Below, piece by piece: positions 26,162 to 42,407 of a stretch of 46,006 bases of DNA. The DNA comes from Bacillota bacterium (GTDB taxonomy: Bacteria; Bacillota; Halanaerobiia; Halanaerobiales; M55B127). The position numbers and the translations under genes were made by a program. Positions within the stretch are counted from its first letter, which is position 1. Each line of letters begins with the position of its first letter. The notes under the pieces were generated by a model. That model had not been told where the DNA came from. It saw nothing but the letters and a program-made list of their open reading frames with translations, and searched no databases. Location: NCBI GenBank assembly GCA_051745185.1, contig JBNJDV010000004.1:1-46006 (forward strand), written 5' to 3'.

Positions 26162-26837
26162 ATTTATATCCCACCCCTCTAACAGTAGCTATATAATCCG
26201 AAGAAATCTTTTTGCGCAGTCGCCTGATATGAACATCAACAGTTCTTGTATCACCTGCATATTCATAACCCCATATTTTTTCTAAAAGTAAATCTCTGCT
26301 AAGAACATGTCCTTGATTAACTATTAGATATTTTAAAAGTTCAAATTCTTTAGGAGTCAATACAATTTTCTTTTTGTGATAATATACTTCATGACGCGGA
26401 ATATCCAATTTTAAATCACCTAGGTCAATAGTTTCTTCTTTTAACTCGCTGCTAATGTTTTTAATTTCTTTCATTCTACGAAAAATAGCTTTTATCCTAG
26501 CAATCAGTTCCCGGGGGCTAAACGGCTTTGTCATATAATCATCTGCACCCATTTCAAGTCCCAAAATTCTTTCAACTTCTTCACCTTTAGCAGTTAACAT
26601 TATAATCGGTATCTGTCTTAAGTCTTCATTACTTCTCATTTCACGACAGACTTCCATTCCATCAACTTCTGGTAACATTAAATCTAAAACTACAAGATCT
26701 ATTCCCTTTGAAAGCAATTGAAGTGCTTCTCTTCCATCTGCTGCTGTCAATGCCTTAAAACCAGCATTTTCTATATTAAACTTTATTAGCTCACGAATAT
26801 TTTTTTCATCTTCCACAATTAATATTTTTTTCTTCAA
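26145..26837 (-). CDS. phoP: OmpR/PhoB-family response regulator (PhoP/PhoB-like)
   Basis: Receiver with DLVVLDLMLPEVDG and a winged-helix C-terminus (TVDVHIRRLRKK...VRGVGYKF). TTG start at 26837 with a GGGGG SD. Confidence 0.9.
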   Translation of the reverse strand: MKKKILIVEDEKNIRELIKFNIENAGFKALTAADGREALQLLSKGIDLVVLDLMLPEVDGMEVCREMRSNEDLRQIPIIMLTAKGEEVERILGLEMGADDYMTKPFSPRELIARIKAIFRRMKEIKNISSELKEETIDLGDLKLDIPRHEVYYHKKKIVLTPKEFELLKYLIVNQGHVLSRDLLLEKIWGYEYAGDTRTVDVHIRRLRKKISSDYIATVRGVGYKFVKME

Positions 26838-31091: not shown

Positions 31092-31128
31092 AAAAAAAGG
31101 TTAATCCCAAATAAATAGGATTAACCTT
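31092..31128 (-). terminator. Intrinsic terminator after the cyclase-family gene
   Basis: AAGGTTAATCC (31097..31107) pairs with GGATTAACCTT (31118..31128). A run of 7 T follows on the minus strand (31092..31098). Confidence 0.7.
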
Positions 31129-31172: not shown

Positions 31173-31820
31173 TTAATCTAATTCAGTTAAAACCGCTCTT
31201 ACTGGAGAAGCCTCACAATCTTTTAACTTCAGTGGCAAAGCGTTTAGATTATATAATCCAGGATTAATTTCACTTAAGTCTATTCCTTCTAATATAATTA
31301 CTTCATTACCTAATAGAAACTTATGAACATCAAAATTATTAGTTCCTAACTCTTCAATTGTTATATAATCTATACCAATAAACTTAACTCCCTTTTGAAC
31401 TAAGTACTTGGCTGCTTTATGTGTTAAGTATATAAATTCTTCATTAAATTCATTTTCTTTTAAATAACTAGAATTTTTGGTTTTAAATAAAATCTTATCA
31501 CTTTTAATTTCATGGTCAGTTAACTCTCTTTTAGTAATTATTTTCTTGTTTTTAATCTCAATTACCTGTGTTTTCCCCATAAATCTCTCTAGCTTGATAT
31601 TATCAATATTTTTACCATTTTCAATAAAATGTGAGGGTGCATCTACATGTGTACCCACATGAACACTAAATCTTATATTACTAAGTTTATAACCATCTGT
31701 ATTTATATCTTTTGTTATTTCTTTTCGTGTTACTATATCTCCAGGAAAATTAATCATATCATTTTTTATATCAATCGATATATCATATATCTTTTTGTTA
31801 ATCATGTTATCTCCTTTCAT
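31173..31820 (-). CDS. Cyclase-family protein / arylformamidase (kynurenine formamidase-like)
   Basis: HVGTHVDAPSHF metal-binding motif. 215 aa. Overlaps the upstream gene by 4 nt. Confidence 0.8.
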   Translation of the reverse strand: MKGDNMINKKIYDISIDIKNDMINFPGDIVTRKEITKDINTDGYKLSNIRFSVHVGTHVDAPSHFIENGKNIDNIKLERFMGKTQVIEIKNKKIITKRELTDHEIKSDKILFKTKNSSYLKENEFNEEFIYLTHKAAKYLVQKGVKFIGIDYITIEELGTNNFDVHKFLLGNEVIILEGIDLSEINPGLYNLNALPLKLKDCEASPVRAVLTELD

Positions 31821-32779
31821 ACTACTTTGTTATTAGGTTCGCGTCCCTCAAGAACTGCAATAACATCTTCAGCTACCATTTCAGACATCTTATATCTGGC
31901 ATAAGTTGTTGCTGATCCAGTATGAGGAGTTAACACTACATTATCTAATTCAAGTAACTTTCGATAAATTTCAGGTTCTTTTTCATATACATCCAATCCG
32001 GCTGCAAATAACTCTTTATTTATTAAGGCATTTGCTAGTTCTTTTTCATTAATAATTGGGCCTCTGCCTGTATTAACTATTACTGCAGTTTCTTTCATCT
32101 TTTTTAATTCTGGTTTATCAATAAGATGATAGGTAGATTCATTTAAAGATGCATTAATAGCAATAAAGTCAGAGCTTTCTATTAGTTCATTTAGTTCAGC
32201 ATAAGCAGCATCTAATTTGTTTTCTTCTTTTTTATCTAAGGGAGTTCTCTTATTATATAAAACATCCATATTAAATCCTTTAGCTCGCTGTGCAACAGCC
32301 CTACCAATTCTTCCAAATCCTATAATTCCCAATGTTTTGCCATAGGTTCTTTGACCTAATAACAACTCGGGCCCCCAACCTTTATATTTTAAATTCCTTA
32401 CAAATTTATCTGACTCAATTATCCTTCTGGCTGCTGATAATAGTAAAGTCCAGGTTAAATCTGCTGTTGCCTGGGTTAATACATCTGGTGTATTTGTCAC
32501 AGATATACTGTTTTCTTTAGCTGCATCTAAATCAATATTGTCATACCCTACTGCATAGTTGGCTATAACTTTCAAATTATTACATTTTTCAATTATCTCA
32601 CGGTCAATAGGGTCACTTAAAAGTGAAACAATTGCATCTGCCTCTTTAGCTTTGTTAATTAATTCTTCTTTAGTCGGATTTGTAGAATCAGAAAACACTT
32701 CAACCTCATATTTTTCCTTTAACATTTCTAAACCGGTATCCGGGATTTTTCTTGTTATAAATACTTTGGGCATATTCAC
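31817..32779 (-). CDS. D-isomer-specific 2-hydroxyacid dehydrogenase (glyoxylate/hydroxypyruvate reductase-like)
   Basis: GIIGFGRIGRAVAQR NAD-binding fold, NTGRG, and the catalytic TPHTGSAT motif. Confidence 0.88.
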   Translation of the reverse strand: MNMPKVFITRKIPDTGLEMLKEKYEVEVFSDSTNPTKEELINKAKEADAIVSLLSDPIDREIIEKCNNLKVIANYAVGYDNIDLDAAKENSISVTNTPDVLTQATADLTWTLLLSAARRIIESDKFVRNLKYKGWGPELLLGQRTYGKTLGIIGFGRIGRAVAQRAKGFNMDVLYNKRTPLDKKEENKLDAAYAELNELIESSDFIAINASLNESTYHLIDKPELKKMKETAVIVNTGRGPIINEKELANALINKELFAAGLDVYEKEPEIYRKLLELDNVVLTPHTGSATTYARYKMSEMVAEDVIAVLEGREPNNKVV

Positions 32780-32800: not shown

Positions 32801-34126
32801 TTATTTATAACTTAAATTTCTTTTATCAAAATCCTCTTTTATACCGGCAAGTTTTGTTAAAAGAACTTTTTTTTCAACAGCTAAAATTTTAATTAAATTT
32901 TTAATGTAAGATATATCATTTTCCTTTAATCTGATCTCTAGTTCTTTTAATTTTGTCTCGTTTTCATTATTATAACCTTTTTTTACATACTGGTTTAGTT
33001 TAACTAATTCTTTTTCTAATAGACCTTTTTCTTTACACAAAATATTTAACTCGTCTTTATATATTTTTATCTTTTTCTTTAATAAAAAAAGTTCTTGATC
33101 TAAGTTTTCTATGTAATCAAACCCTTGTTTTTTTAATAACATTAACTTGTTATCTAATTGTTTGTTTTCTAGTTCAATATTATAATTACTATTAGTTAGA
33201 CTAATCTCTAATCCTAACTGAGCATCTTCAGGTTGGTTTTGGTAATAATTTATTACTTTGACTTGTGGTGATCTTTTCTTGTTGATATTTGTTTTTTGTA
33301 AATTATAAAGTTGCTTTTTATAATTCAAGATCCTTTCTTTGTTAAAAAATAAATTACTTAATACATAATATTTTATTTTTCCCCCATTAAATAGACCGGT
33401 TTTAAAGTATCGCAAACTGTTATTTTCAATTAATTTTCTGGTGTTATTAGAAATTGAACTCAGCTCTTTATCAATTTTTAATAACTCTAGCTTTGATTTT
33501 TCTAAATTAAGTTTTAATCTTTTATTATTGCTTCCAACTTCCTTATTCGCTTTCATTTTAGCATAAAATATCTGTTTATTTATATTATGCCTTTTAGAAT
33601 ATAACTTATATTTGTTCTTCACCTCTATATATCTGGCTAATTCTTTTAAGATTTTGATGAATTTTTTATACTTTAAATTTAATAGCTTCTCTTTATTTAA
33701 TGCTTTGTTTGTTTTTAACTGTAGATACTTTATTTTTTCATCATTAAATCTGGGAAAGATAACCTTATTCCCTTCAACACTAAAACTGTATTTATCAGTT
33801 ATCATACTTTGGTTTAATTCAAGCCTTATATTAATATCATTTTTATACTTACCGTTGGTTATTAGTTCAAAAGAAGTATTATTATCTTTATATACTAAAT
33901 TATTTTTTATATAAATATTTAGTTTGTTTTTTCTAAAAGTAGAACTGTTACTTTTGATCTCTTTGTCGATTTGATTCAGCTTGTTTTTAATACTAATTAT
34001 TTCTATATTACTTTCTATTAATTTTATAATTTTATCATATCTTTGATTAGTTTCCTTAGCATCTACATTAACTATAAATATTAATGGTATTATTAGAATC
34101 ACTATTATAATTTTTTTAAGCAACAA
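32801..34126 (-). CDS. Secreted Lys/Asn-rich coiled-coil protein; divergent TolC/OEP-like outer-membrane factor candidate
   Basis: Signal peptide MLLKKIIIVILIIPLIFIVNVDA. Long heptad-like helices alternate with short amphipathic beta-like stretches (SFELITNGKYKNDINIRLEL; QVKVINYYQ..AQLGLEISLTNSNY). At 441 aa it is TolC-sized. TTG start with a GGAGG SD. Confidence 0.5.
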   Translation of the reverse strand: MLLKKIIIVILIIPLIFIVNVDAKETNQRYDKIIKLIESNIEIISIKNKLNQIDKEIKSNSSTFRKNKLNIYIKNNLVYKDNNTSFELITNGKYKNDINIRLELNQSMITDKYSFSVEGNKVIFPRFNDEKIKYLQLKTNKALNKEKLLNLKYKKFIKILKELARYIEVKNKYKLYSKRHNINKQIFYAKMKANKEVGSNNKRLKLNLEKSKLELLKIDKELSSISNNTRKLIENNSLRYFKTGLFNGGKIKYYVLSNLFFNKERILNYKKQLYNLQKTNINKKRSPQVKVINYYQNQPEDAQLGLEISLTNSNYNIELENKQLDNKLMLLKKQGFDYIENLDQELFLLKKKIKIYKDELNILCKEKGLLEKELVKLNQYVKKGYNNENETKLKELEIRLKENDISYIKNLIKILAVEKKVLLTKLAGIKEDFDKRNLSYK

Positions 34127-34136
34127 TATTCCTCCG

Positions 34137-35147
34137 TTAATATAGCTCTGATTTGTATTTTAGATATGTATTATAATAATTTAGAATTATTTTTACCTTT
34201 TCATTTTTGAGTTTAGATATTTTTAAATCTTGTTTTAAAACACTTATTTTAGTATCTAGTCCTAAACTATATTCTTTTTTTACTGTACTTTTTTCTCTCT
34301 CAGCAATATCTAATCTTTTTTCCATAACTTCATATGATTTTTTAAAGTTTTCATTCAACAGCTTAAAATCATTATTAATTGCTTTTATGTTTGCCTTATA
34401 TATCTTTTTGTTGTTTTTGATTAATATTTTTTGTTTTTTAAGTTTATTAATATATTTTAAAGGCAAGTTACTAATACTGCCTTTTTTCAATTTTAAGTTT
34501 ATAAGTTTAGATCTCTTGTTTAATAGTTTAATATATATCTTGTTCTCATGATTTTTAACATCAATAATAATATCTGTTAATCTTTGTTCGATTTCATATC
34601 TATTATTTTCGTCTGTTATATTCAATCTGTTTTCCAATTTACCCTTATAATTATCTAAATTTGCTAGTTCCTTTTCAATATTTAGCTGCATCTTCTTAGT
34701 TGTATAAACTTGTCTTGTTAACTTTTCTTCTGTAATTAATCCTTTTTTCTTCTTTTTTTTGATCTCATTTAATATCATCTGTTCGAATTCTAACTGTTCT
34801 TTTAATATCTTTAATTTATATTTTGTTAATATAACCTTATGATATAAACTAAAAAGCGAATTAAAGTTTTGCATGATTAACTCTTTTAACTCATAATCAT
34901 TTTCTAAACTTTTAATCTCATAATTTAATATATCCAACTTGTTTTTTTGATCTAAGTCATTATACTTTTCTAGTTCGATATTGTTTTGCTTTACCTCATA
35001 TTGATTTAGTAATTTTTTATATGCCAAACTTTTTTTAGAGTATAGGTTAACCAAAGTTGAATAATTTATTTTTTCTGCTTCAATACCATTGGTAATGAAG
35101 ACAGTTAATAATATTAAAAACAACATTATATTCTTAAGTTTTTTCAA
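34137..35147 (-). CDS. Secreted coiled-coil protein; second TolC/OEP-like candidate (short)
   Basis: Signal peptide MKKLKNIMLFLILLTVFITNGIEA. An OEP-repeat-like pattern is present (INYSTLVNLYSKKSLAYKKLL...; KKGLITEEKLTRQVYTTKKMQLNIEKELANLDNYKGKLENRL). TTG start 12 nt after the buk stop. Confidence 0.5.
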   Translation of the reverse strand: MKKLKNIMLFLILLTVFITNGIEAEKINYSTLVNLYSKKSLAYKKLLNQYEVKQNNIELEKYNDLDQKNKLDILNYEIKSLENDYELKELIMQNFNSLFSLYHKVILTKYKLKILKEQLEFEQMILNEIKKKKKKGLITEEKLTRQVYTTKKMQLNIEKELANLDNYKGKLENRLNITDENNRYEIEQRLTDIIIDVKNHENKIYIKLLNKRSKLINLKLKKGSISNLPLKYINKLKKQKILIKNNKKIYKANIKAINNDFKLLNENFKKSYEVMEKRLDIAEREKSTVKKEYSLGLDTKISVLKQDLKISKLKNEKVKIILNYYNTYLKYKSELY

Positions 35148-35159
35148 AAAATCAAACCT

Positions 35160-36257
35160 TTATTTAAAAATTTTAGTGTTGATTTTACCTTCTCGGTATT
35201 GCATGATATCTTCTTCACCCTTAAGTACTCTTAAAGCTCCTTTGGCTAAACTGTTCATCTCCTCAGCCCCAGGATATATAAAAACATCGGCAATAAAGCT
35301 GACTTTCTTAGTAATTCTTGATGTAATATAATCGGAATGAGCAAGTCCCCCAGTTATAAAAATAGCATCTACATTACCACCTAATGCTGCAGCCATTGCT
35401 CCAATTTCTTTTGCTATTTGATAAATCATACCTTCATAGACTAATTTGGCTTTTTTATCTCCATTTTTTATTTTTTTTTCTATTTCTTGTCCATCATTAG
35501 TATCTAGATATGCTGTCAGACCTCCATTACCTAATATTTTTTTAATGAATTGGTCTCGATCAGGATTATTTTCAAAGATGTATTCTGCCAAATCTAAGGT
35601 GGGTAAAGTACCCACTCTTTCTGGTGAATATGGACCACCTTGATTAGCATTGTTAACATCAATAATTCTCCCCTTTTTTAAAGGCGCAATTGAAATGCCG
35701 CCGCCAAGATGAGCTCCAATAAGGTTACATTCATTAAATATCAAACCATTATCTTCAGCAGTTTTTCTTCCTATTGATTTTAAATTCAAGGCATGTGATT
35801 GGCATTTTCTCGGTATCTCAGGTAATCCTGATAGTCTTGCTATATCTTCAAATTCATCGACTGATATTGGGTCTACTGTATAAGCTGGTATATCGTTTTC
35901 TTTTGATAAATTGTATGCGATTATTCCCGCAAGATTAGAAGCATGAGAAGAGTTTTTGGCTATCTTTAAATCATGAACCATATCATCTCCAATAATATAG
36001 GTTCCCCCTAATAATGGATCTAAACCAACACCACCGCGGGCTACAACTGCATCAAAGTTTTTTAGACTATAATTAGACTTTAATAGTTCTTCTTTAATTA
36101 AACTGTATCTCCAATCTAACTGATCAATTATTTTATCAAACTTTTTCAACTTCACAGAATCATGCTTGAGATTCCTTTTCCAAACTTCATTTTCATCTTC
36201 AAAAATTGATATCTTAGTTGAGGTAGAACCAGGATTAATTACAAATACTTTATACAT
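35160..36257 (-). CDS. buk: Butyrate kinase
   Basis: VINPGSTSTKISIF, HASNLAG, IGAHLGGGISI and ITGGLAH are ASKHA-fold butyrate kinase blocks. No ptb gene is adjacent. Confidence 0.93.
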   Translation of the reverse strand: MYKVFVINPGSTSTKISIFEDENEVWKRNLKHDSVKLKKFDKIIDQLDWRYSLIKEELLKSNYSLKNFDAVVARGGVGLDPLLGGTYIIGDDMVHDLKIAKNSSHASNLAGIIAYNLSKENDIPAYTVDPISVDEFEDIARLSGLPEIPRKCQSHALNLKSIGRKTAEDNGLIFNECNLIGAHLGGGISIAPLKKGRIIDVNNANQGGPYSPERVGTLPTLDLAEYIFENNPDRDQFIKKILGNGGLTAYLDTNDGQEIEKKIKNGDKKAKLVYEGMIYQIAKEIGAMAAALGGNVDAIFITGGLAHSDYITSRITKKVSFIADVFIYPGAEEMNSLAKGALRVLKGEEDIMQYREGKINTKIFK

Positions 36258-36328
36258 ATTATCTCACCTTTCTAATTGCTTTATATTAAATATTTCAGCA
36301 ATCACTACCCCTAATCCTTCTTTTAATA

Positions 36329-37126
36329 TTAGACTTCTTCAAAAGATAATAAGCCGATCTTAATTGCTTTAATTACCAGTTCAATTTTAGAAGAAACATT
36401 TAATTTATTAAACAAGATTTTTTTATGGTATTTTACTGTGCTTTTACTAAGATGCATATCTTCAGCTAATGCTCTTTCTGTATATCCATTTGCTAATTTT
36501 TTTAAGATATACCTTTGATTATATGATAGATCATTAATCTTATCATCATTTTTTAACCTGTGCTTATTATTTGATTTTAAACTTATGTTACTTGAGAAGA
36601 GTTCCATCAAGTATATGATCTGCTCTGAAATTCCATCTTTGCTTATTAAGTTAATAAATCCATTGATTTCTTCATTGTTTTTAATTGGATATGCCAAACT
36701 ATACCAACTATTTAATGGTTTACAAAAATGGTGTCCGGGTAACATATAGACCGGTTTATTTATTTTAGCTGCTAGTTGTACTGCATTTGTTCCTGAATAT
36801 CTCTCTTTTAGCGAAGTCCCTATACTTATCCCCTTTGTTTTTAAATCATTTTTGAAATTTATATCACCCACCAGTTCTTCAATTGTTTTGTCTTTGTTGA
36901 CCAACAGTAGACAGTACTTTAATTTTATTGATTGTTTTAGTTTATCAGACATTTCTGCAAAAAGTTCTTTTGTCTCGATAGAGAACTCATCTAATTTATT
37001 TTGGTTATGAAAAAGTTTATCTTTTAATATGTATCTTTTTTTATTCTCCTTTAAACACCTTGACCAAGAAGATGTTACCTCTTCTTTTATTAATTTATAA
37101 TCAAAATACATATCCTCTATTTTCAT
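36329..37126 (-). CDS. LuxR-family transcriptional regulator with an uncharacterised N-terminal sensory domain
   Basis: C-terminal LSYNQRYILKKLANGYTERALAEDMHLSKSTVKYHKKILFNKL is a LuxR HTH. The N-terminal ~190 aa are unassigned, apart from an SWSRC motif near the start. Confidence 0.7.
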   Translation of the reverse strand: MKIEDMYFDYKLIKEEVTSSWSRCLKENKKRYILKDKLFHNQNKLDEFSIETKELFAEMSDKLKQSIKLKYCLLLVNKDKTIEELVGDINFKNDLKTKGISIGTSLKERYSGTNAVQLAAKINKPVYMLPGHHFCKPLNSWYSLAYPIKNNEEINGFINLISKDGISEQIIYLMELFSSNISLKSNNKHRLKNDDKINDLSYNQRYILKKLANGYTERALAEDMHLSKSTVKYHKKILFNKLNVSSKIELVIKAIKIGLLSFEEV

Positions 37127-37174
37127 CTATTATATACACTCCTAAGTTTTTACACATATTTGATTAATGAATTA

Positions 37175-38332
37175 TTATAAATTAGTGTTTAAAAAATCTA
37201 ACTTTTCTAGTATATAATATATGATCTTTCTTTTATCAACTACAATAGAAGCCTGTGTTAACATATTATTTCTATAAGCAACATATTTCCTTTTATCTCC
37301 TTTAGTTAAATAATTATTTATACTGGCCTTTATCTTATAAACATAATTTTTATTATCCATATTAGTAGCATCCCGGTCTATTTTCAAAACTTTACCTTCA
37401 GCAACACCATATTCTTTATACGGATAGGAACTAATTCTATATCTTATAAGATCATCTTTTTTAATTCTTAGTATATCTTTATTCTGTACTGCCAATTCAA
37501 CGATATATTTATTTTGTGAAGATGGAATAATTTTTAATACTTCCTTACCAGCTGGTATGTAATCACCTATATTATACTCTTTTATAAACTCAATTCGTCC
37601 AGCAATTGGAGCTTTTATCCTGTAATTCTTAAAATCGTTGTTTATACTTTCAATTTCCAATTTATCTTTATCAATTAGTTTTCTTTTTTCTATAATTCTA
37701 TTATCTATTTCTACTATTTTTTTATTAACCAGACTTTTTAATTCAAATTTAAGCTGGTTTAAGTTATCTTTTTTAGCTAAGTAGTCTATTTCAGTAATAC
37801 TTACATTCTTTAATTCCTTAAACTTCAATAATTCTTTTTCTTTTTTATCTATCTTCTTAACATAATAATTAGCTTTTTCTTCAAATGATTTCATTTCATT
37901 TTTTAGTAATTCAAACCTCTCATGAATCTTAAATCTATTTGACAATAAATATTGTTTAGTTTCTTTTAATTCATCAACATACTTCTTATTTGTTTTTATT
38001 CTCTCTTTTAAAAACTCTTTTCTTTTTAAAATATCTCCTTTTTTTATTTCAAATAATAGGTCTCCTTTATTAACTATCTTTTTTTTATCACTAACTATAT
38101 CTTTTAATCTACCACCTTTTATACTATATACGGTGCTTATATTATTTTGATACTTAATAATCCCGTTAGTTTTAATTATCACATCTAATTTACCATAAAA
38201 AACCCATAATAATGCTAACATGATTATAATTAAAACTATCAATATCAAAAATTTAATAAATACATATCTATTTGAATTTTTGTGGTATCTTTTCTTTCTC
38301 AGTTGTTCAATATCTAGATATTTTTTATTCAA
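37175..38332 (-). CDS. HlyD/CvaA-type membrane fusion (adaptor) protein
   Basis: N-terminal cytoplasmic stub, one TM segment (FIKFLILIVLIIIMLALLWVF), a lipoyl/barrel-sandwich start (GIIKYQNNISTVYSIKGGRLKDI), a long coiled coil and a beta-barrel end. The only available start is TTG at 38332 (GGGG SD, 7-nt spacer). Confidence 0.85.
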   Translation of the reverse strand: MNKKYLDIEQLRKKRYHKNSNRYVFIKFLILIVLIIIMLALLWVFYGKLDVIIKTNGIIKYQNNISTVYSIKGGRLKDIVSDKKKIVNKGDLLFEIKKGDILKRKEFLKERIKTNKKYVDELKETKQYLLSNRFKIHERFELLKNEMKSFEEKANYYVKKIDKKEKELLKFKELKNVSITEIDYLAKKDNLNQLKFELKSLVNKKIVEIDNRIIEKRKLIDKDKLEIESINNDFKNYRIKAPIAGRIEFIKEYNIGDYIPAGKEVLKIIPSSQNKYIVELAVQNKDILRIKKDDLIRYRISSYPYKEYGVAEGKVLKIDRDATNMDNKNYVYKIKASINNYLTKGDKRKYVAYRNNMLTQASIVVDKRKIIYYILEKLDFLNTNL

Positions 38333-38351
38333 TTATATTCCCCTATGACTA

Positions 38352-40547
38352 TTATTTTTGTTTTTCCCATAAATTATAATATCTTTCTTTTTGATTTATT
38401 AACTTTTGATGAGTACCTTTCTCTAAAACCTTTCCATTTTCTATATAAAATATCTGGTCACAGTCTTTAACTGACTTTAGTCTATGAGCAACTATTATAA
38501 TCGTCTTATCACTAAATACTTGGTTTAGCATCTTATAAATATTTTTCTCAGAAGAATAATCTAGATTATTAGTGGCTTCATCTAATATTAGTACATCTGG
38601 TTTTTTTAATAGAGCCCTTGCTATAGCTATTCTCTGCTTTTGTCCACCTGATAGATTTTGACCTCGTTCTGTAACCACAGTATCATATCTGTTTGGTAGT
38701 TGATTGATATATTTATGTATTTGGCTTTTTTTACTAACCTCGATTATATCTTTAATAGAGTGTTTTTTGTTATCTAAACTTATATTTTCTTTAATACTTT
38801 TATTAAACAAGAATATATCTTGTGGTACATATCCTATTACATCTCTTAAGTTTTTTGAATTAATATCATCAATATTACTTCCATCAATTAATATTTCACC
38901 ACTATTTGCAGCATAATACTTCATTAACAGTTTAATTATTGTACTCTTCCCAGAACCGCTTTTCCCGACAATCGCCACCTTTTGTCCTGCTTTAATTTGA
39001 AATGATATCTTGTTTAAAACTTTTTTCCTCATATTATATATAAACTCTACCTCTTTAAACTCTATTAATCTTTTTACACCTTTTATTTTTAACTGACTAT
39101 CACTGATTTGAACGGGATTTAATACCATAATTTCTTTCAATCTTTCAACAGCTACCATTGCCTTCTGTATTTTCGGTTGTAGTTTGATTAAATTTTGTAG
39201 GGGGTTATAGAAATAGGCTAATAAGGCATTGAATGTTATAAGCTGTCCTACTGTTAAATTGCCATTAATAACCTGATAACCACCTGTCCACAAAATAATA
39301 ATCTCTCCAACAGCTGCTAATAAGTTATCTATTGAATTTTGTATGTTTTTAATGAAATTGGCCCTAAAAACTTCTTCAATAAAGTTTAAAAAACTTATCT
39401 CATTATTAAGATAGATATTATTTTCTTCATTCAATGCCTTAATTGTTTTTATGCCATCTACAGTTTCAACTAAACTACTCTGTAGCTTTGCTCCTTTTTC
39501 CATTTCTCTTTTTCTTACTGTACTATATTTATTTGCAAATATTAATACTAAGATTATATAGATTGGAATTAATATCACTGCTATTTTAAAAAGATAACTG
39601 CTTTGATAGTATAAAATAACTCCTCCACAAATAATTAGTAATGAATCGATCATAATTGAGATTGCTGCATTTGATAGAGCGTCTCTAATTTTTCCCGAAT
39701 CCTGTATTCTTGAAAGTATTTCTCCTATTTCTCTTTTATCATAAAATGATATAGGTAGTTTTAAAATATGGTCAATATAGTCTGTAATTAAATTAATATC
39801 AATTTGTTGGCTTAAATATAGTGTTAAGTGGTTTCTAAAAGCATCCATCATAACTTTTAATAAAGTAACAGCTAAAACACCTAAAGAAATTACATGCAAT
39901 GATTTTAAAAGTCCATTAACTAAAATATTATCAATTAGATATTTAAAATAAAACGAACCAGTAATTCCAAGAGCTGTATAAACCAATGAAGCAATAAAAA
40001 TCTGTGTTATCATTGATTTATTGGTTTTTAACTGTATTTTAATGAAATCGAAATTACTTATATTTTGATTGTTGATTCCTTTGTTATCAGTTGGATTAAA
40101 TATCAATAGAATGTTTGTCCATATTTTATTAAACTCTTTTTTGCTTATTAACTTTAGTCCGGTTTCCGGATCAAAGATTAGCAGTTTTTTGTTATATATT
40201 TTATAAACCACAATAAAATGAGCAATATTTCTCTTTATAACATGGGCTACCACTGGTGTTTTAAGATTCTGATTTAAATTATTAATTTTAGCTTTGACAC
40301 CTTTTGCATTCAACTTCAAACTTTCAGCTGCTTTTATTAAACCAAATGCAGAAGTCCCTTTTTGATTTGTACCAGCAATTTCTCTTATTCTGCTTATTGG
40401 GTAGTTAATTCCATACAAATTAGCTACTGTTGCCAAACAGGCTGCCCCACAATCACTATTATCTTTTTGTTTTATAAATTTACTTTTTTTAAAAACCTTT
40501 AATAGTATTAAGTACAGATTATCTATAATATTATGCATATTAACCAA
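38352..40547 (-). CDS. Peptidase-C39-containing ABC exporter (PCAT; CvaB/LagD/ComA type)
   Basis: The N-terminal C39 domain keeps its catalytic residues (QKDNSDCGAACL Cys; AHFIVVY His; FDPETG Asp). Six-TM domain, Walker A GKSGSGKST, LSGGQKQRIAIARA, LILDEATNNLD. Confidence 0.93.
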   Translation of the reverse strand: MVNMHNIIDNLYLILLKVFKKSKFIKQKDNSDCGAACLATVANLYGINYPISRIREIAGTNQKGTSAFGLIKAAESLKLNAKGVKAKINNLNQNLKTPVVAHVIKRNIAHFIVVYKIYNKKLLIFDPETGLKLISKKEFNKIWTNILLIFNPTDNKGINNQNISNFDFIKIQLKTNKSMITQIFIASLVYTALGITGSFYFKYLIDNILVNGLLKSLHVISLGVLAVTLLKVMMDAFRNHLTLYLSQQIDINLITDYIDHILKLPISFYDKREIGEILSRIQDSGKIRDALSNAAISIMIDSLLIICGGVILYYQSSYLFKIAVILIPIYIILVLIFANKYSTVRKREMEKGAKLQSSLVETVDGIKTIKALNEENNIYLNNEISFLNFIEEVFRANFIKNIQNSIDNLLAAVGEIIILWTGGYQVINGNLTVGQLITFNALLAYFYNPLQNLIKLQPKIQKAMVAVERLKEIMVLNPVQISDSQLKIKGVKRLIEFKEVEFIYNMRKKVLNKISFQIKAGQKVAIVGKSGSGKSTIIKLLMKYYAANSGEILIDGSNIDDINSKNLRDVIGYVPQDIFLFNKSIKENISLDNKKHSIKDIIEVSKKSQIHKYINQLPNRYDTVVTERGQNLSGGQKQRIAIARALLKKPDVLILDEATNNLDYSSEKNIYKMLNQVFSDKTIIIVAHRLKSVKDCDQIFYIENGKVLEKGTHQKLINQKERYYNLWEKQK

Positions 40548-40550
40548 TAC

Positions 40551-40682
40551 TTATTGCAATAAATGGTATGCGATCTGGCCGATCATAAAACCTAATATTA
40601 CCCCAGCTGCAGTTGTAAAAAATATACCCAATACCAAATTATGTCCGCTTACAGGTCCCTTTAATAATGATAATAATGTCAT
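40551..40682 (-). CDS. 43-aa hydrophobic peptide C: leaderless paralogue of peptide A's mature region (candidate immunity peptide or leaderless bacteriocin)
   Basis: MTLLSLLKGPVSGHNLVLGIFFTTAAGVILGFMIGQIAYHLLQ. ATG at 40682 with an AAGGAG SD and 9-nt spacer. The track's 71-aa version starts at an SD-less TTG. It ends 3 nt before the ABC gene start. Confidence 0.6.
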   Translation of the reverse strand: MTLLSLLKGPVSGHNLVLGIFFTTAAGVILGFMIGQIAYHLLQ

Positions 40683-40766
40683 TATAACATTCTCCTTATC
40701 CTTCAATAATATTTGCCTCCCTTTTTGGTAAGGGGAATAACATTTAAAGTTATTCCCCTTTATCAA

Positions 40767-40916
40767 CTATTCTCTAGCTGCTTTGTTGTAACCAACATAA
40801 GCACCAAGAGCAATTCCGCCTAAACCAGCTGCCAGGTAAATAACAGTTGCTGTTGTACTACTAACTACAAATCCACCGTCTATTTCCATTAATTCCTGTT
40901 GGGTTAAATCTCTAAT
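40767..40916 (-). CDS. Double-glycine-leader peptide B (49 codons if started at AUU; 40 if at the internal AUG at 40889)
   Basis: Hand translation: (I/M)RDLTQQELMEIDGG-FVVSSTTATVIYLAAGLGGIALGAYVGYNKAARE. GAGGTG SD at 40927..40922, 5 nt before ATT at 40916. There is an in-frame TGA at 40928..40926. Below the ORF-track cutoff. Confidence 0.65.
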   Translation of the reverse strand: MRDLTQQELMEIDGGFVVSSTTATVIYLAAGLGGIALGAYVGYNKAARE

Positions 40917-40935
40917 ACGTTCACCTCATTTCTAA

Positions 40936-41109
40936 TTACTGAGTAGAGTAATAATATGCTGCTCCAACTGCTAAACCTATTGCTATACCTGCAGAAGCAA
41001 CTCCAAAGGCTCCTAATACTAAAGCCGAACCAGAAACCGGTCCACCACCATTAATATCCATTAATTCTTGATTGGTTAAAACATGAGAGTTATTAGCTGT
41101 TAGTTCCAT
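40936..41109 (-). CDS. Double-glycine-leader peptide A (57 aa precursor, 35-aa predicted mature peptide)
   Basis: Hand translation: MELTANNSHVLTNQELMDINGG-GPVSGSALVLGAFGVASAGIAIGLAVGAAYYYSTQ. GGGGG SD at 41120..41116. The leader matches the L(-12) E(-8) L(-7) I(-4) G(-2) G(-1) consensus. Below the ORF-track cutoff. Confidence 0.8.
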   Translation of the reverse strand: MELTANNSHVLTNQELMDINGGGPVSGSALVLGAFGVASAGIAIGLAVGAAYYYSTQ

Positions 41110-41160
41110 TTAATTCCCCCTTAATAGATATTTCCCGGGATTTACTATTTTCAATATTAT

Positions 41161-41180
41161 CATATTTTTACATATTTTTC
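41161..41180. repeat. Tandem 10-bp direct repeat in the promoter region of the peptide operon
   Basis: The plus strand reads CATATTTTTA CATATTTTTC (minus strand GAAAAATATG TAAAAATATG). On the minus strand it sits immediately upstream of a TGaTAATAT extended -10-like element (41162..41154). Confidence 0.5.
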
Positions 41181-41288
41181 CACTACCTGAAAGTACCAAA
41201 TCTTACTATTTTAAGAAAATATAATGTTGGAATAATTACTCTCTAGTTGATAAAAATACCATTTTGTCAGTTTATAAGTTTTAACACA

Positions 41289-41327
41289 TAAAAAAACGGC
41301 TATATAAAATGATAAATTTTATATAGC
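41289..41327 (-). terminator. Intrinsic terminator of the DUF368 gene, insulating it from the peptide operon
   Basis: GGCTATATAAAAT (41297..41309) pairs with ATTTTATATAGCC (41315..41327) across a 5-nt loop. A 7-T run follows on the minus strand (41289..41295). Confidence 0.75.
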
Positions 41328-41362
41328 CTAATCCTAATCATATATTTATTTTTAAAATATTT

Positions 41363-42136
41363 TTAAGTATTCTCACCTATCAACTCTAATATTATAATAA
41401 TTACTGCTCCAACAAAAAAGGCAAAAATACCATTAATAATAAGTGCTGAAGGGAATACTGCAGCACTTGAACCTAATATTAAACCTGTTAGAACAGTCAT
41501 TACCTTTTTGTAATGATTTTTTAATAATAATGAAAATAAGTTAGCAAATACTAATAGACCTAAAACAACTCCAACTGCAAATACAATTAAAAATAGTATC
41601 TCTAAGTTATTAATTGCTGCTAATAAAGGGTGATAAACTCCCATTAAAACTAATATTGTACCACCACTTATTCCCGGTAATATCATTGCAATACTTCCAA
41701 CAAAACCTGCAATAAAATATAATAAATAACCGTTTAAATTTCCAAAGTTAACTTGAAATTCCATACTAAAAAATAATGCACCAGCAAAGGCTAATAATAA
41801 AAATAATAACTTTAAAAAATTAATATTTCCCATTTTTTTATATGTCGAGTGTGCAGAAGTTATTACTAAACCAAATAAAAAGTAGTTTAATAATAGAGGG
41901 TTACTTGCATATACATCAGTAATTACTGATGAACCTATATATACACCTAAAACAGCACCCAACCCAATAGGTATTAATCTCTTTAAGTTTATATTTTTGA
42001 TTGCAATAATTAATGTTTCATATATATTTAATACTAAAGCTATTGTACCACCACTAACACCGGGAAGGGTGTTCGCTAAACCGAAAGGTATAGATTTTAA
42101 AAATAATGATATAAAAGAATTATTATTGCCTGACAA
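41363..42136 (-). CDS. DUF368-family membrane protein (PopT-type undecaprenyl-phosphate translocase family)
   Basis: The LPGVSGGTIALVL and LPGISGGTILVLMG duplicated motifs are characteristic of DUF368. About 8 TM segments. Confidence 0.85.
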   Translation of the reverse strand: MSGNNNSFISLFLKSIPFGLANTLPGVSGGTIALVLNIYETLIIAIKNINLKRLIPIGLGAVLGVYIGSSVITDVYASNPLLLNYFLFGLVITSAHSTYKKMGNINFLKLLFLLLAFAGALFFSMEFQVNFGNLNGYLLYFIAGFVGSIAMILPGISGGTILVLMGVYHPLLAAINNLEILFLIVFAVGVVLGLLVFANLFSLLLKNHYKKVMTVLTGLILGSSAAVFPSALIINGIFAFFVGAVIIIILELIGENT

Positions 42137-42245: not shown

Positions 42246-42407
42246 TTATTCATCTTCATTATATGGTAAGAGCTTGATATCATCCTCATCTATCTTCTCA
42301 AGGTCAATATTATGCTTTTTTACAAAATGATAGGTTGCTTGTCCTGGTGCATGAGCTTCTACAATCTCCTCTATTCCTTCTTTTTCATATATAATTTTAT
42401 ATTTCAT
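42246..42407 (-). CDS. Small acidic hypothetical protein (53 aa)
   Basis: Hand translation: MKYKIIYEKEGIEEIVEAHAPGQATYHFVKKHNIDLEKIDEDDIKLLPYNEDE. GGAGGG SD 7 nt upstream and its own terminator. Below the ORF-track cutoff. Confidence 0.55.
   Translation of the reverse strand: MKYKIIYEKEGIEEIVEAHAPGQATYHFVKKHNIDLEKIDEDDIKLLPYNEDE

What the first reader, a model, noticed from the sequence alone, without database searches (positions are those of the whole stretch)
32801..41290. Class II microcin / two-peptide-bacteriocin-like locus joined to a diderm-style three-part export set in a Firmicute-type genome
On one strand, behind one promoter region, lie three tandem small-peptide genes, followed directly (3-nt and 19-nt gaps) by a C39-peptidase ABC exporter with an intact Cys/His/Asp triad and a HlyD/CvaA-type adaptor. 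Further down the same strand are two signal-peptide coiled-coil proteins with TolC/OEP-like repeat patterns. In monoderm Firmicutes, bacteriocin export needs only the ABC protein plus an accessory protein. An added outer-membrane duct is the logic of colicin V-type class II microcins in Proteobacteria. The flanking backbone (veg, rsmA, tatD, ispE, glmU-prs-ctc-pth) is typically Firmicute, so the host is probably a diderm Firmicute such as Halanaerobiales or Negativicutes. Gly-rich double-glycine peptides exported across two membranes in that lineage would be an essentially unexplored system. The block is visibly more A/T-rich, with Lys/Asn/Ile-dominated proteins, than its neighbours, which hints at horizontal acquisition. 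I cannot verify novelty without a database search.
Basis: partly seen in the sequence, partly recalled or inferred. Interest (0 to 1): 0.85.

Follow-up and report, generated by a model that had tools for sequence, protein, structure and literature searches.

The report
Two-peptide bacteriocin export operon, Halanaerobiales
An uncultured salt-loving bacterium with two membranes carries an ordinary-looking two-peptide bacteriocin operon with its cleaving ABC exporter and adaptor, but I could not show that the two downstream coiled-coil proteins are its outer-membrane duct.

Summary
The core observation holds. On the minus strand lie two double-glycine peptide genes, a third small gene, a C39-peptidase ABC exporter (PCAT) and a HlyD-type adaptor.

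Three corrections:
- Peptide 2 has a full 15-residue leader only if it starts at a conserved ATT/ATC codon.
- The third peptide has no double-glycine leader. It is a leaderless paralog of mature peptide 1, and I rate it the immunity candidate.
- A GAF-LuxR regulator and butyrate kinase lie between the adaptor and the two coiled-coil genes.

The outer-membrane claim is unproven:
- cc1 shows only sub-threshold similarity to outer-membrane factors. Pfam OEP gives E 0.025. My own profile tests score above their controls.
- cc2 shows none by HMMER, HH-suite, PDB search or Foldseek.
- Both AlphaFold models are poor.
- Both proteins are orphans confined to this clade.

The horizontal-transfer hint is rejected. 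The block is syntenic in five related loci, and third-position GC is normal.

Verdict: a new member of a known kind in an unexplored lineage. A divergent two-protein outer-membrane duct remains possible (about 0.3).

The parts
41298..41328 (-). Intrinsic terminator of the upstream popT-like gene. It marks the upstream border of the unit.
   Evidence: 13-bp stem followed by a T-run. Conserved in L001.
41154..41182 (-). Candidate sigma-70 promoter: TGGAAA, 17-nt spacer, TG-extended TAATAT.
   Evidence: Read from the sequence. The block is conserved in L001 and partly in L005. It has only 8 of 12 consensus matches, so the scan did not list it. Inferred, not shown.
41133..41140 (.). Palindrome TCCCGGGA between the candidate -10 and the ribosome-binding site of peptide 1. 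Candidate operator or 5'-UTR element.
   Evidence: Unique in the window, against 0.06 expected by chance. Conserved in L001 and in the distant L005.
40936..41109 (-). Peptide 1 precursor, 57 aa. The 22-aa double-glycine leader is MELTANNSHVLTNQELMDINGG. The 35-aa Gly/Ala-rich mature peptide has three GxxxG motifs.
   Evidence: PF10439 34.2 bits (cut-off 27.1) and TIGR03949 23.7 bits (cut-off 21.5). 73-88% identical in relatives.
40767..40916 (-). Peptide 2 precursor, 49 aa if started at ATT 40916. The leader is (M/I)RDLTQQELMEIDGG. The 34-aa mature peptide has two GxxxG motifs.
   Evidence: The frame is open only from ATT, which lies 5 nt after GAGGTG. ATT is conserved in L001 and is ATC in L005. 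Leader residues -4, -7, -8 and -12 are kept through amino-acid changes. No family HMM hit.
40732..40758 (-). Stable RNA hairpin after peptide 2, without a U-tract. Candidate transcript-stabilising or attenuating element.
   Evidence: -18.3 kcal/mol, z -5.4. Compensatory changes keep it in L001 (-18.8 kcal/mol). Absent in L005.
40551..40682 (-). ORF3, 43 aa: MTLLSLLK followed by GPVSGHNLVLGIFFTTAAGVILGFMIGQIAYHLLQ. It is a leaderless paralog of mature peptide 1. Immunity candidate.
   Evidence: 16 of 35 residues are identical to mature peptide 1, ungapped and of equal length (sequence). An AAGGAG ribosome-binding site and the ATG are conserved. 98% and 70% identical in L001 and L005. No double-glycine motif.
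38352..40547 (-). Peptidase-containing ABC transporter (PCAT): C39 peptidase, six-helix membrane domain and ATPase domain.
   Evidence: TIGR01193 634.8 bits. Pfam domains. 618 bits to the 'ABC-type bacteriocin transporter' 8vp3/4ry2 (PCAT1, by my own recollection) with the catalytic residues aligned.
37175..38332 (-). HlyD-family membrane fusion protein (adaptor).
   Evidence: HlyD_3 62 bits. TIGR01843 109 bits and TIGR01000 66 bits, both below their cut-offs. Best solved relative is E. coli HlyD 8dck, E 1.7e-13.
36329..37126 (-). One-component regulator: GAF-like sensor domain plus LuxR/GerE helix-turn-helix.
   Evidence: GerE 47 bits. GAF E 0.0035. Similar to the DhaR N-terminal region, E 1.5e-10. 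Keeps its position in all relatives.
35160..36257 (-). Butyrate kinase. It sits inside the unit, and I see no link to export.
   Evidence: NF002834 475.7 bits and TIGR02707 471.3 bits.
34137..35147 (-). cc1, 336 aa: a secreted, Lys/Asn-rich, predicted all-helical orphan with weak similarity to the helical hairpins of outer-membrane factors.
   Evidence: Pfam OEP E 0.025-0.29 in the 4 close members and no hit in the 2 distant ones. hhalign score 25.6 against a null of 10.8 +/- 1.5. Two colinear HMM hits in all five members, E 8e-6 to 1e-4, against >= 0.0076 in controls. Only 6 relatives in 5.8 billion proteins.
32801..34126 (-). cc2, 441 aa: a secreted orphan with two beta-rich segments, each followed by a long helical hairpin. 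Function unknown.
   Evidence: No Pfam, NCBIfam or PDB hit. A full HMMER search of 1.84 billion representatives finds only its own clade. hhalign and hmmsearch against outer-membrane factors stay at control level. Low-confidence AlphaFold secondary structure.
31173..32779 (-). 2-hydroxyacid dehydrogenase and cyclase-family genes, the last genes before the next terminator.
   Evidence: Pfam families listed for the relatives. 2HADH is absent in L005.
31097..31128 (-). Intrinsic terminator. It marks the downstream border of the unit.
   Evidence: 13-bp stem followed by a T-run. There is an equivalent terminator after the cyclase gene in L005.

Best explanation
This is a chromosomal, vertically inherited bacteriocin operon of a small, uncultured Halanaerobiales clade.

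**Proposed mechanism**
- Two precursor peptides carry double-glycine leaders and Gly/Ala-rich, GxxxG-bearing mature parts of 35 and 34 residues. That is the signature of class IIb two-peptide, membrane-active bacteriocins.
- The C39 domain of the PCAT cuts the leaders off after GG. The PCAT then pumps the peptides out.
- The PCAT works with a HlyD-type adaptor that spans the periplasm.
- The 43-residue ORF3 is a leaderless copy of mature peptide 1. It would stay in the producer's inner membrane, and it is the most likely immunity factor.
- A GAF-LuxR one-component regulator inside the unit is the likely regulator.

**The outer-membrane step**
- Because the host has an outer membrane, an outer-membrane duct is required.
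- cc1 and cc2 are secreted, fast-evolving orphans that always sit downstream with no terminator in between. They are the only local candidates.
- Only cc1 shows a weak likeness to outer-membrane factors. The duct could equally be a canonical TolC-family protein encoded elsewhere.

**Shown by sequence and HMMs:** the family membership of peptide 1, the PCAT and the adaptor, the catalytic residues, the synteny, and the host lineage.

**Inferred:** the ATT start, the two-peptide mode of action, the immunity role of ORF3, co-transcription, and any role of cc1 and cc2.
For: - Peptide 1 passes PF10439 and TIGR03949.
- The leader of peptide 2 is conserved at residues -4, -7, -8 and -12 across 25% protein divergence, with ATT/ATC placed 5 nt after GAGGTG.
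- The PCAT scores 634.8 bits on TIGR01193, and its Gln/Cys/His/Asp align with those of PCAT1.
- The adaptor hits HlyD_3, and E. coli HlyD is its best solved relative.
- ORF3 matches mature peptide 1 at 16 of 35 positions and is conserved in every relative.
- The gene order from peptide 1 to cc2 is the same in the window, L001, L005 and L006; L004 holds it only from the end of the adaptor gene onward.
- Neither the window nor L005 has an intrinsic terminator between the one upstream of peptide 1 and the one after the cyclase gene.
- The relatives are labelled Halanaerobiales, an order with an LPS outer membrane (PMC5007114).
- cc1 scores above controls against outer-membrane factors.
Against: - There are no expression, export or activity data.
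- Peptide 2 and ORF3 hit no family model.
- The adaptor is below the curated cut-offs of both TIGR01843 and TIGR01000.
- The regulator and butyrate kinase separate the adaptor from cc1 and cc2.
- Most type I systems encode their outer-membrane factor at a second locus (PMC4793230).
- cc2 has no detectable similarity to outer-membrane factors and no detectable internal repeat.
- The distant cc1 homologs do not hit Pfam OEP.
- All loci are related by descent, so conserved adjacency is weak evidence of functional linkage.
Confidence: 0.7

Rival explanations
1. cc1 and cc2 form a dedicated, highly divergent TolC-like outer-membrane duct, possibly a two-protein one. It docks on the HlyD-type adaptor, so the locus is a self-contained three-part exporter.
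For: - Both proteins have signal-peptide-like N-termini.
- All five cc1 members hit my full-length outer-membrane-factor HMM in two colinear stretches. These match the two helical hairpins, with E 8e-6 to 1e-4 against >= 0.0076 in reversed and HlyD controls. hhalign gives 25.6 against a null of 10.8 +/- 1.5.
- Pfam OEP is the best or near-best weak hit in the 4 close cc1 members.
- The secondary-structure order predicted for cc2 recalls a TolC repeat. It runs short helix (23 aa), beta segment, 67-aa helix, 49-aa helix. The comparison with TolC rests on my own recollection.
- The distant cc2 homolog P0013 carries two P-x-L/I-x-L/I strand-start motifs, at residues 70 and 294. TolC has the same motif at 62 and 268.
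- cc1 and cc2 diverge far faster than their neighbours (25-29% identity against 65-84%), which fits surface exposure.
- They are always found next to the exporter.
Against: - cc1 is below the Pfam cut-off (14.8 bits against 22). It is about 100-150 residues too short to hold the beta-barrel segments.
- The distant cc1 homologs do not hit OEP.
- cc2 is at control level in every profile test and shows no internal repeat.
- The AlphaFold models are poor, and Foldseek returns only generic coiled coils.
- The strand-start motif is missing from the window's own cc2.
- Two unrelated genes lie between the adaptor and cc1.
Confidence: 0.3
2. cc1 and cc2 have nothing to do with peptide export. They are lineage-specific envelope or periplasmic coiled-coil proteins of unknown role. 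They sit in a housekeeping stretch (butyrate kinase, dehydrogenase, cyclase), and the exporter uses a canonical TolC-family protein encoded elsewhere.
For: - cc2 has no significant similarity to outer-membrane factors.
- A regulator and a metabolic gene separate them from the adaptor.
- Most type I systems are split over two loci, and Halanaerobiales genomes were reported to encode type I systems detectable with standard models (PMC4793230).
- Conserved adjacency could simply reflect shared descent within one small clade.
Against: - The weak outer-membrane-factor signal of cc1 reproduces in two branches that are only 30% identical.
- There is no terminator between the exporter and cc1/cc2 in two distant relatives.
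- The adjacency survives where neighbouring genes (popT, 2HADH) come and go.
Confidence: 0.45
3. The block is a recently acquired horizontal island, as its A/T richness hinted.
For: GC is 21-23% over cc1, cc2 and HlyD, against about 30% in the rest of the window.
Against: - Third-position GC of cc1, cc2, HlyD and ABC (0.18-0.22) equals the window mean of 0.194 +/- 0.035. The deficit lies in codon positions 1 and 2, and Lys+Asn+Ile+Glu make up 45-50% of these proteins.
- The same gene order, in the same tatD...rsmA-veg backbone, occurs in five related loci, one of them with only 65-80% identical housekeeping proteins.
- No mobility genes or tRNA genes flank the block.
Confidence: 0.04
4. The double-glycine peptides are not antimicrobials. 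They are signalling or other exported peptides.
For: - Double-glycine leaders with PCATs also export pheromones such as ComC. This rests on my own knowledge.
- No activity data exist.
- A regulator lies inside the operon.
Against: - Peptide 1 passes two bacteriocin family models.
- Both mature peptides are long, hydrophobic and rich in GxxxG, unlike short pheromones.
- There is no histidine-kinase and response-regulator pair in the unit.
- A small hydrophobic gene of the immunity type follows the two peptides.
Confidence: 0.08

Closest known systems
Class IIb two-peptide bacteriocins of monoderm Firmicutes (lactobin A/cerein 7B family TIGR03949; lactococcin G and the plantaricins as the functional model)
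   Same: - Two adjacent small genes have double-glycine leaders.
- The mature peptides are Gly/Ala-rich, hydrophobic and carry GxxxG motifs.
- A small hydrophobic gene follows them.
- A PCAT and an accessory protein are encoded in the same operon.
- Peptide 1 passes the family HMMs.
   Different: - The producer has an outer membrane.
- Peptide 2 matches no model and uses an ATT/ATC start.
- The putative immunity gene is a leaderless paralog of one of the peptides.
- There is no peptide-pheromone, kinase and response-regulator module. A GAF-LuxR regulator stands in its place.
Colicin V (microcin V) system CvaC-Cvi-CvaA-CvaB plus TolC; class II microcins of Proteobacteria
   Same: - The export logic is the one a diderm needs. 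A double-glycine leader is cut by a PCAT, a HlyD-family adaptor follows, and an outer-membrane duct completes the route (PMC12219008).
- An immunity gene lies next to the structural gene.
   Different: - In the known systems the outer-membrane partner is the housekeeping TolC, encoded elsewhere. Here it is unidentified.
- The peptides resemble Gram-positive class IIb peptides, not known microcins.
- The PCAT is closest to a clostridial PCAT.
- How such peptides would cross a target cell's outer membrane is unknown.
The solved 'ABC-type bacteriocin transporter' of PDB 4ry2/8vp3, which is PCAT1 of Clostridium thermocellum by my own recollection
   Same: It is the best solved relative of the ABC protein, at 618 bits over the full length. 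The C39 active-site residues and the ATPase motifs align.
   Different: By my own recollection, PCAT1 comes from a monoderm and works without an adaptor. Here a HlyD-type adaptor follows 19 nt downstream.
HlyB-HlyD-TolC type I secretion system of E. coli
   Same: - The adaptor's best solved relative is HlyD (8dck, E 1.7e-13).
- TIGR01843 is the adaptor's best NCBIfam hit.
- The ABC protein also matches HlyB (346 bits).
   Different: - The substrates are small leader-bearing peptides, not proteins with C-terminal signals.
- The C39 domain is catalytically intact.
- The adaptor scores below the TIGR01843 cut-off.
- No TolC was recognised.

Membership tests
Class IIb (two-peptide) bacteriocins / Bacteriocin_IIc (PF10439, TIGR03949) | The family HMM is passed at the curated cut-off. 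| tested here: met
   Peptide 1 scores 34.2 bits on PF10439 (cut-off 27.1) and 23.7 bits on TIGR03949 (cut-off 21.5). Peptide 2 hits neither, so membership is shown for one of the two peptides only.
Class IIb (two-peptide) bacteriocins / Bacteriocin_IIc (PF10439, TIGR03949) | An N-terminal double-glycine leader with hydrophobic residues at -4, -7 and -12 and Glu at -8. | tested here: met
   Peptide 1 has ...LTNQELMDINGG. Peptide 2 has IRDLTQQELMEIDGG, but only if it starts at ATT 40916. The pattern is conserved in L001 and L005.
Class IIb (two-peptide) bacteriocins / Bacteriocin_IIc (PF10439, TIGR03949) | Two adjacent structural genes whose mature peptides carry GxxxG helix-packing motifs. | tested here: met
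   There are three GxxxG motifs in mature peptide 1 and two in mature peptide 2. The genes are 19 nt apart (sequence).
Class IIb (two-peptide) bacteriocins / Bacteriocin_IIc (PF10439, TIGR03949) | Antimicrobial activity needs both peptides, and a cognate immunity protein protects the producer. | not testable with these tools
   ORF3 is only a positional and compositional candidate for immunity.
Peptidase-containing ABC transporters (PCAT; TIGR01193) | A C39 domain with catalytic Cys/His/Asp and the oxyanion Gln, fused to an ABC membrane domain and an ATPase domain. The HMM is passed. | tested here: met
   634.8 bits (cut-off 523.85). Peptidase_C39 scores 142 bits. Gln27, Cys33, the His of 'AHF' and the Asp of 'FDP' align with PCAT1.
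HlyD-family type I secretion adaptors (TIGR01843) / bacteriocin accessory proteins (TIGR01000) | The HMM is passed at the curated cut-off. | tested here: not met
   TIGR01843 scores 109 bits (cut-off 208.65) and TIGR01000 scores 66.4 bits (cut-off 258.85). The general HlyD_3 domain is passed at 62.1 bits (cut-off 22.2). I therefore file it as HlyD-family in the broad sense only.
Outer-membrane factor / TolC family (Pfam OEP PF02321) | Two OEP repeats are detected at the curated cut-off. | tested here: not met
   cc1 scores 14.8 bits (cut-off 22). The close homologs give E 0.036-0.29 and the distant homologs give no hit. cc2 and its homologs give no hit.
Outer-membrane factor / TolC family (Pfam OEP PF02321) | Profile-profile or profile-sequence similarity to known outer-membrane factors exceeds controls. 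| tested here: inconclusive
   cc1 gives hhalign 25.6 (P 0.016) against a shuffle null of 10.8 +/- 1.5, a reversed score of 13.5 and a HlyD control of 15.1. hmmsearch gives E 8e-6 to 1e-4 in 5 of 5 members, against >= 0.0076 in controls. cc2 stays at control level. A full HMMER search and a PDB profile search find nothing for cc2.
Outer-membrane factor / TolC family (Pfam OEP PF02321) | The fold is a trimeric 12-stranded beta-barrel on a long alpha-barrel. | tested here: inconclusive
   The AlphaFold2 models have pLDDT 55.6 and 44.8. Foldseek against the PDB gives no hit at E <= 0.001 and no TolC among the hits. The models are too poor for this to count as a negative.
Class II microcins (colicin V type) | A small double-glycine-leader peptide made by a bacterium with an outer membrane and exported by a PCAT, an adaptor and TolC. 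| tested here: inconclusive
   The peptide, PCAT and adaptor are present. The diderm host is inferred from the Halanaerobiales labels of relatives and from PMC5007114. The outer-membrane partner is not identified. I did not test similarity to known microcins.

The most novel reading that the evidence does not exclude
cc1 and cc2 together form a previously unrecognised, extremely divergent outer-membrane duct. cc1 would supply an alpha-barrel-like part and cc2 the beta-strands. The duct is dedicated to bacteriocin export in a diderm Firmicute and is co-transcribed with its PCAT and adaptor. This would be a heteromeric relative of TolC that standard models cannot see.
Probability: 0.25. Interest if true: 0.75.

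Novelty: new member of a known kind. Interest (0 to 1): 0.45.

Why it matters
Peptide bacteriocins have been studied mainly in monoderm Firmicutes, and class II microcins in Proteobacteria. Diderm Firmicutes sit between these two groups, and I found no characterised peptide bacteriocin system from them.

This locus offers a concrete, testable case of a Gram-positive-type two-peptide bacteriocin that has to cross an outer membrane. It raises three questions:
- Which protein forms the outer-membrane duct?
- Which cells do the peptides kill?
- How do the peptides reach the inner membrane of a diderm target?

The locus also carries two practical warnings for genome mining. Gene callers truncate peptide 2 because it starts at ATT/ATC. 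The likely immunity gene is a leaderless copy of the toxin peptide.

If cc1 and cc2 prove to be the duct, they would widen the known sequence range of TolC-like proteins. If they do not, the locus is a routine PCAT operon in an under-sampled lineage.

Tried and rejected
- **Structure route.** I modelled cc1 with 4 sequences and cc2 with 8. The models reached pLDDT 55.6 and 44.8. Foldseek against the PDB returned only generic coiled coils such as SMC, F-BAR and axonemal proteins. The route is uninformative because the families are too small for a useful alignment.
- **Looking for bridging homologs.**
  - A word-indexed search of 5.8 billion proteins found 4 relatives for cc1, 8 for cc2, and 6 for a cc1 profile at E <= 10.
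  - A full HMMER scan of 1.84 billion representatives with the cc2 profile found two clusters only.
  - A scan of GTDB genomes with the adaptor profile found one locus.
  - No intermediate towards OEP exists in these databases.
- **PDB profile searches.** cc1 and cc2 found nothing.
- **Internal-repeat test of cc2.** The N-terminal half against the C-terminal half gave no signal. The script then stopped on an error, so cc1 and the control were not run.
- **Paralogy of cc1 and cc2.** No signal.
- **Script error, corrected.** My first hhalign and hmmsearch runs silently dropped the window's cc1 and two HlyD control sequences because of a name clash with an alignment file. I repeated them correctly and the outcome was the same. 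One search is the one to cite.
- **tblastn of both peptides against PLSDB plasmids.** No match. This may be due to the low-complexity filter.
- **Horizontal-island idea.** Rejected on third-position GC and synteny.
- **Read-through from peptide 1 into peptide 2.** Rejected. The two genes are in different frames in the window and in the same frame, behind two stop codons, in L005.
- **The 71-aa TTG-started version of ORF3.** Rejected. The upstream part overlaps the hairpin, carries indels in L001, and is not conserved as protein.

Full report
**What is there**

All genes of interest lie on the minus strand. Reading 5' to 3':

| Feature | Coordinates | Size |
|---|---|---|
| Peptide 1 | 41109-40936 | 57 aa |
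| Peptide 2 (as called) | 40889-40767 | 40 aa |
| Third small ORF | ends 40551 | see below |
| ABC exporter with N-terminal C39 peptidase | 40547-38352 | 731 aa |
| HlyD-family adaptor | 38332-37175 | 385 aa |
| GAF-LuxR regulator | 37126-36329 | 265 aa |
| Butyrate kinase | 36257-35160 | 365 aa |
| cc1 | 35147-34137 | 336 aa |
| cc2 | 34126-32801 | 441 aa |
| 2-hydroxyacid dehydrogenase | 32779-31817 | 320 aa |
| Cyclase-family protein | 31820-31173 | 215 aa |

Intergenic gaps are 3 to 71 nt.

- Family assignments come from Pfam and NCBIfam.
  - Peptide 1 passes Bacteriocin_IIc (34.2 bits, cut-off 27.1).
  - Peptide 1 also passes TIGR03949, 'class IIb bacteriocin, lactobin A/cerein 7B family' (23.7 bits, cut-off 21.5).
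  - The ABC protein passes TIGR01193 'peptide cleavage/export ABC transporter' (634.8 bits, cut-off 523.85).
  - The adaptor passes HlyD_3. It stays below the curated cut-offs of TIGR01843 (109 bits against 208.65) and TIGR01000 (66 bits against 258.85).
- The best solved relative of the ABC protein is the 'ABC-type bacteriocin transporter' of 8vp3/4ry2, at 618 bits. I recall this as PCAT1 of Clostridium thermocellum. The Gln, the Cys of 'DCG', the His of 'AHF' and the Asp of 'DP' are all aligned.
- The best solved relative of the adaptor is E. coli HlyD (8dck, E 1.7e-13).

**Corrections to the peptide genes**

- *Peptide 2.*
  - As called by ORF finders it has only a 6-residue 'leader', MEIDGG.
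  - The frame upstream is open back to a stop codon and holds no ATG, GTG or TTG.
  - It does hold ATT at 40916-40914, 5 nt after a GAGGTG ribosome-binding site.
  - From there the leader reads (M/I)RDLTQQELMEIDGG. Ile is at -4, Leu at -7, Glu at -8 and Leu at -12, which is the double-glycine consensus.
  - L001 keeps the ATT, with one synonymous change in the leader. The distant L005 has ATC at the same place and the leader IQTLNQNELMDVNGG.
  - Read-through from peptide 1 is excluded because the relative frames differ between the window and L005.
  - I conclude that peptide 2 starts at a conserved non-canonical ATT/ATC codon. This is an inference.
- *The third small gene.*
  - It is a 43-aa ORF from ATG 40682, behind AAGGAG: MTLLSLLK-GPVSGHNLVLGIFFTTAAGVILGFMIGQIAYHLLQ.
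  - It has no double-glycine motif.
  - Its last 35 residues align without gaps to the 35-residue mature peptide 1, with 16 identities.
  - It is 98% identical in L001 and 70% identical in L005.
  - A leaderless, membrane-resident copy of one toxin peptide is a plausible immunity factor. This too is an inference.
- *Motifs.* Mature peptide 1 has three GxxxG motifs and mature peptide 2 has two, as in two-peptide bacteriocins.

**Signals**

- Strong intrinsic terminators on the minus strand lie at 41328-41298 (after the upstream popT-like gene) and at 31128-31097 (after the cyclase gene). There is none in between.
- L005 shows the same pattern. The eleven genes may therefore form one long unit, but this has not been shown.
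- A candidate TG-extended promoter lies at 41182-41154. The palindrome TCCCGGGA lies at 41133-41140. It is unique in the window, with 0.06 expected by chance. Both precede peptide 1 and are conserved in relatives.
- A stable hairpin without a U-tract follows peptide 2 at 40758-40732 (-18.3 kcal/mol, z -5.4). Compensatory changes keep it in L001. It is absent in L005.

**Host and history**

- The closest cc2 homolog is labelled 'Halanaerobiales bacterium'.
- The only GTDB genome hit is the Halanaerobiales MAG Salar_de_Ascotan_soil_MAG_ASO31.
- Halanaerobiales are Firmicutes with an LPS outer membrane (PMC5007114).
- The order tatD-(popT)-peptides-PCAT-adaptor-LuxR-buk-cc1-cc2-(2HADH)-cyclase-LuxR-rsmA-...-veg is shared with L001/L002, L004 and L006.
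- It is also shared with the distant L005, which lacks popT and 2HADH.
- Identity of the window proteins to their L005 counterparts:

| Protein | Identity to L005 |
|---|---|
| tatD | 80% |
| Butyrate kinase | 76% |
| Peptide 2 | 75.5% |
| Peptide 1 | 73% |
| rsmA | 71% |
| ORF3 | 70% |
| PCAT | 65% |
| Regulator | 52% |
| Adaptor | 48% |
| cc1 | 29% |
| cc2 | 25% |

- cc1 and cc2 are therefore by far the fastest-evolving genes of the block.
- The low GC of cc1, cc2 and HlyD (21-23%) lies in codon positions 1 and 2, and Lys+Asn+Ile+Glu make up 45-50% of these proteins. Their third-position GC (0.18-0.22) equals the window mean of 0.194 +/- 0.035.
- Together with the synteny, this rejects recent horizontal acquisition.

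**Are cc1 and cc2 TolC-like?**

This is the crux of the finding, and the answer is 'not shown'.

- *Family size.* Both proteins begin with signal-peptide-like segments (MKKLKNIMLFLILLTVFITNGIEA|EK and MLLKKIIIVILIIPLIFIVNVDA|KE). Both are orphans.
  - cc1 has 4 to 6 relatives among 5.8 billion proteins.
  - cc2 has 8 relatives.
  - A full HMMER scan of 1.84 billion representatives with the cc2 profile finds only two clusters.
  - All of these relatives belong to this clade.
- *cc1.*
  - Pfam OEP is a weak hit in the window's cc1 (E 0.025, 14.8 bits, cut-off 22) and in its three close homologs (E 0.036-0.29).
  - It is not a hit in the two distant homologs.
  - I built a profile of 17 known outer-membrane factors. 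These were TolC, CusC and MdtP of E. coli and 14 plasmid-borne ones.
  - In the corrected run, hhalign gives cc1 a score of 25.6 (P 0.016). Column shuffles give 10.8 +/- 1.5, the reversed alignment 13.5 and the HlyD control 15.1.
  - hmmsearch hits all five cc1 members, including the 30%-identical L005 copy, in two colinear stretches. HMM positions about 164-237 match cc1 100-173, and positions about 383-443 match cc1 269-329.
  - Per-sequence E-values are 8e-6 to 1e-4. Reversed and HlyD controls give at best 0.0076.
  - The matched stretches appear to be the two helical hairpins. cc1 is about 100-150 residues too short for the beta-barrel segments.
- *cc2.*
  - It stays at control level in every test.
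  - It shows no internal repeat.
  - It shows no detectable relation to cc1.
- *Structure.*
  - The AlphaFold models are poor (pLDDT 55.6 and 44.8).
  - Foldseek finds only generic coiled coils.
- *Soft points in favour.*
  - The predicted secondary-structure order of cc2 is a 23-aa helix, a beta segment, a 67-aa helix and a 49-aa helix. This recalls a TolC repeat, by my own recollection of the TolC structure.
  - The distant cc2 homolog has two P-x-L/I-x-L/I motifs at residues 70 and 294. TolC has them at 62 and 268.
- I rate 'cc1 and cc2 form the duct' at about 0.25-0.3.

**Comparison with what is known**

- The core is a class IIb-type two-peptide bacteriocin operon with a PCAT and a HlyD-family adaptor.
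- In export logic it should work like colicin V and the class II microcins, that is PCAT, adaptor and TolC (PMC12219008).
- Its parts are of Firmicute type. The PCAT is closest to the clostridial transporter and peptide 1 falls in the lactobin A/cerein 7B family.
- The class II microcin papers I read do not mention diderm Firmicutes (PMC12219008, PMC9746304).
- For Halanaerobiales I found only an antiSMASH-based mention of bacteriocin genes in Halocella (PMC6376428). I also found a statement that some Halanaerobiales genomes encode type I secretion systems (PMC4793230).
- The locus is thus a new member of a known kind in an unexplored lineage. Three unusual details stand out: the ATT/ATC start, the leaderless paralog as probable immunity gene, and the orphan cc1/cc2 pair.

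**Verdict**

It is unproven on the outer-membrane leg and wrong on horizontal transfer.
- Interest is moderate (0.45). It would rise if cc1 and cc2 were shown to be the duct.

Noticed in passing
window 40914-40916 (L005 3209-3211): Peptide 2 appears to start at a conserved non-canonical ATT codon (ATC in L005), 5 nt after GAGGTG. Gene callers in all related contigs report a truncated 40-aa product that lacks most of its leader.
   Followed up: yes
window 40551-40682: The 43-aa ORF3 is a leaderless paralog of mature peptide 1, with 16 of 35 residues identical and the same length to the C-terminus. It may confer immunity by mimicking the toxin peptide. It was not called as a gene in L001 or L005.
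   Followed up: partly
window 41133-41140: The GC-rich palindrome TCCCGGGA is unique in the 29%-GC window. It lies between the candidate -10 and the ribosome-binding site of peptide 1 and is conserved in L001 and in the distant L005. It may be an operator, possibly for the GAF-LuxR regulator.
   Followed up: partly
window 40732-40758: A stable hairpin (-18.3 kcal/mol) without a U-tract follows peptide 2. Compensatory changes keep it in L001, and it is absent in L005. It may set the ratio of peptide message to exporter message.
   Followed up: partly
window 32801-35147 compared with L005 8981-11308: cc1 and cc2 are only 29% and 25% identical between the two subclades, while neighbouring genes are 65-84% identical. 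They evolve far faster than anything else in the block.
   Followed up: yes
window 24380-26837: The response-regulator and histidine-kinase pair next to the Na/Pi-cotransporter (PhoU-domain) gene is only 58% and 44% identical to its counterparts in L001 and L005. The adjacent genes are 84-94% identical. This suggests a divergent or replaced sensor pair.
   Followed up: no
window 15970-17712: An MsbA-like ABC exporter scores 511 bits on TIGR02203 'lipid A export', below the cut-off of 602. It is compatible with an LPS-bearing host but is not diagnostic.
   Followed up: no
window 41363-42136 and 31817-32779: The popT-like polyprenyl-phosphate transporter gene and the 2-hydroxyacid dehydrogenase gene flank or sit in the unit in the window's subclade. 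Both are absent from the otherwise syntenic L005.
   Followed up: no
window 42246-42407: A small acidic 53-aa ORF has its own terminator (42235-42219). It is 92% and 83% identical in L001 and L005. It matched no Pfam family in the precomputed tables. Function unknown.
   Followed up: no
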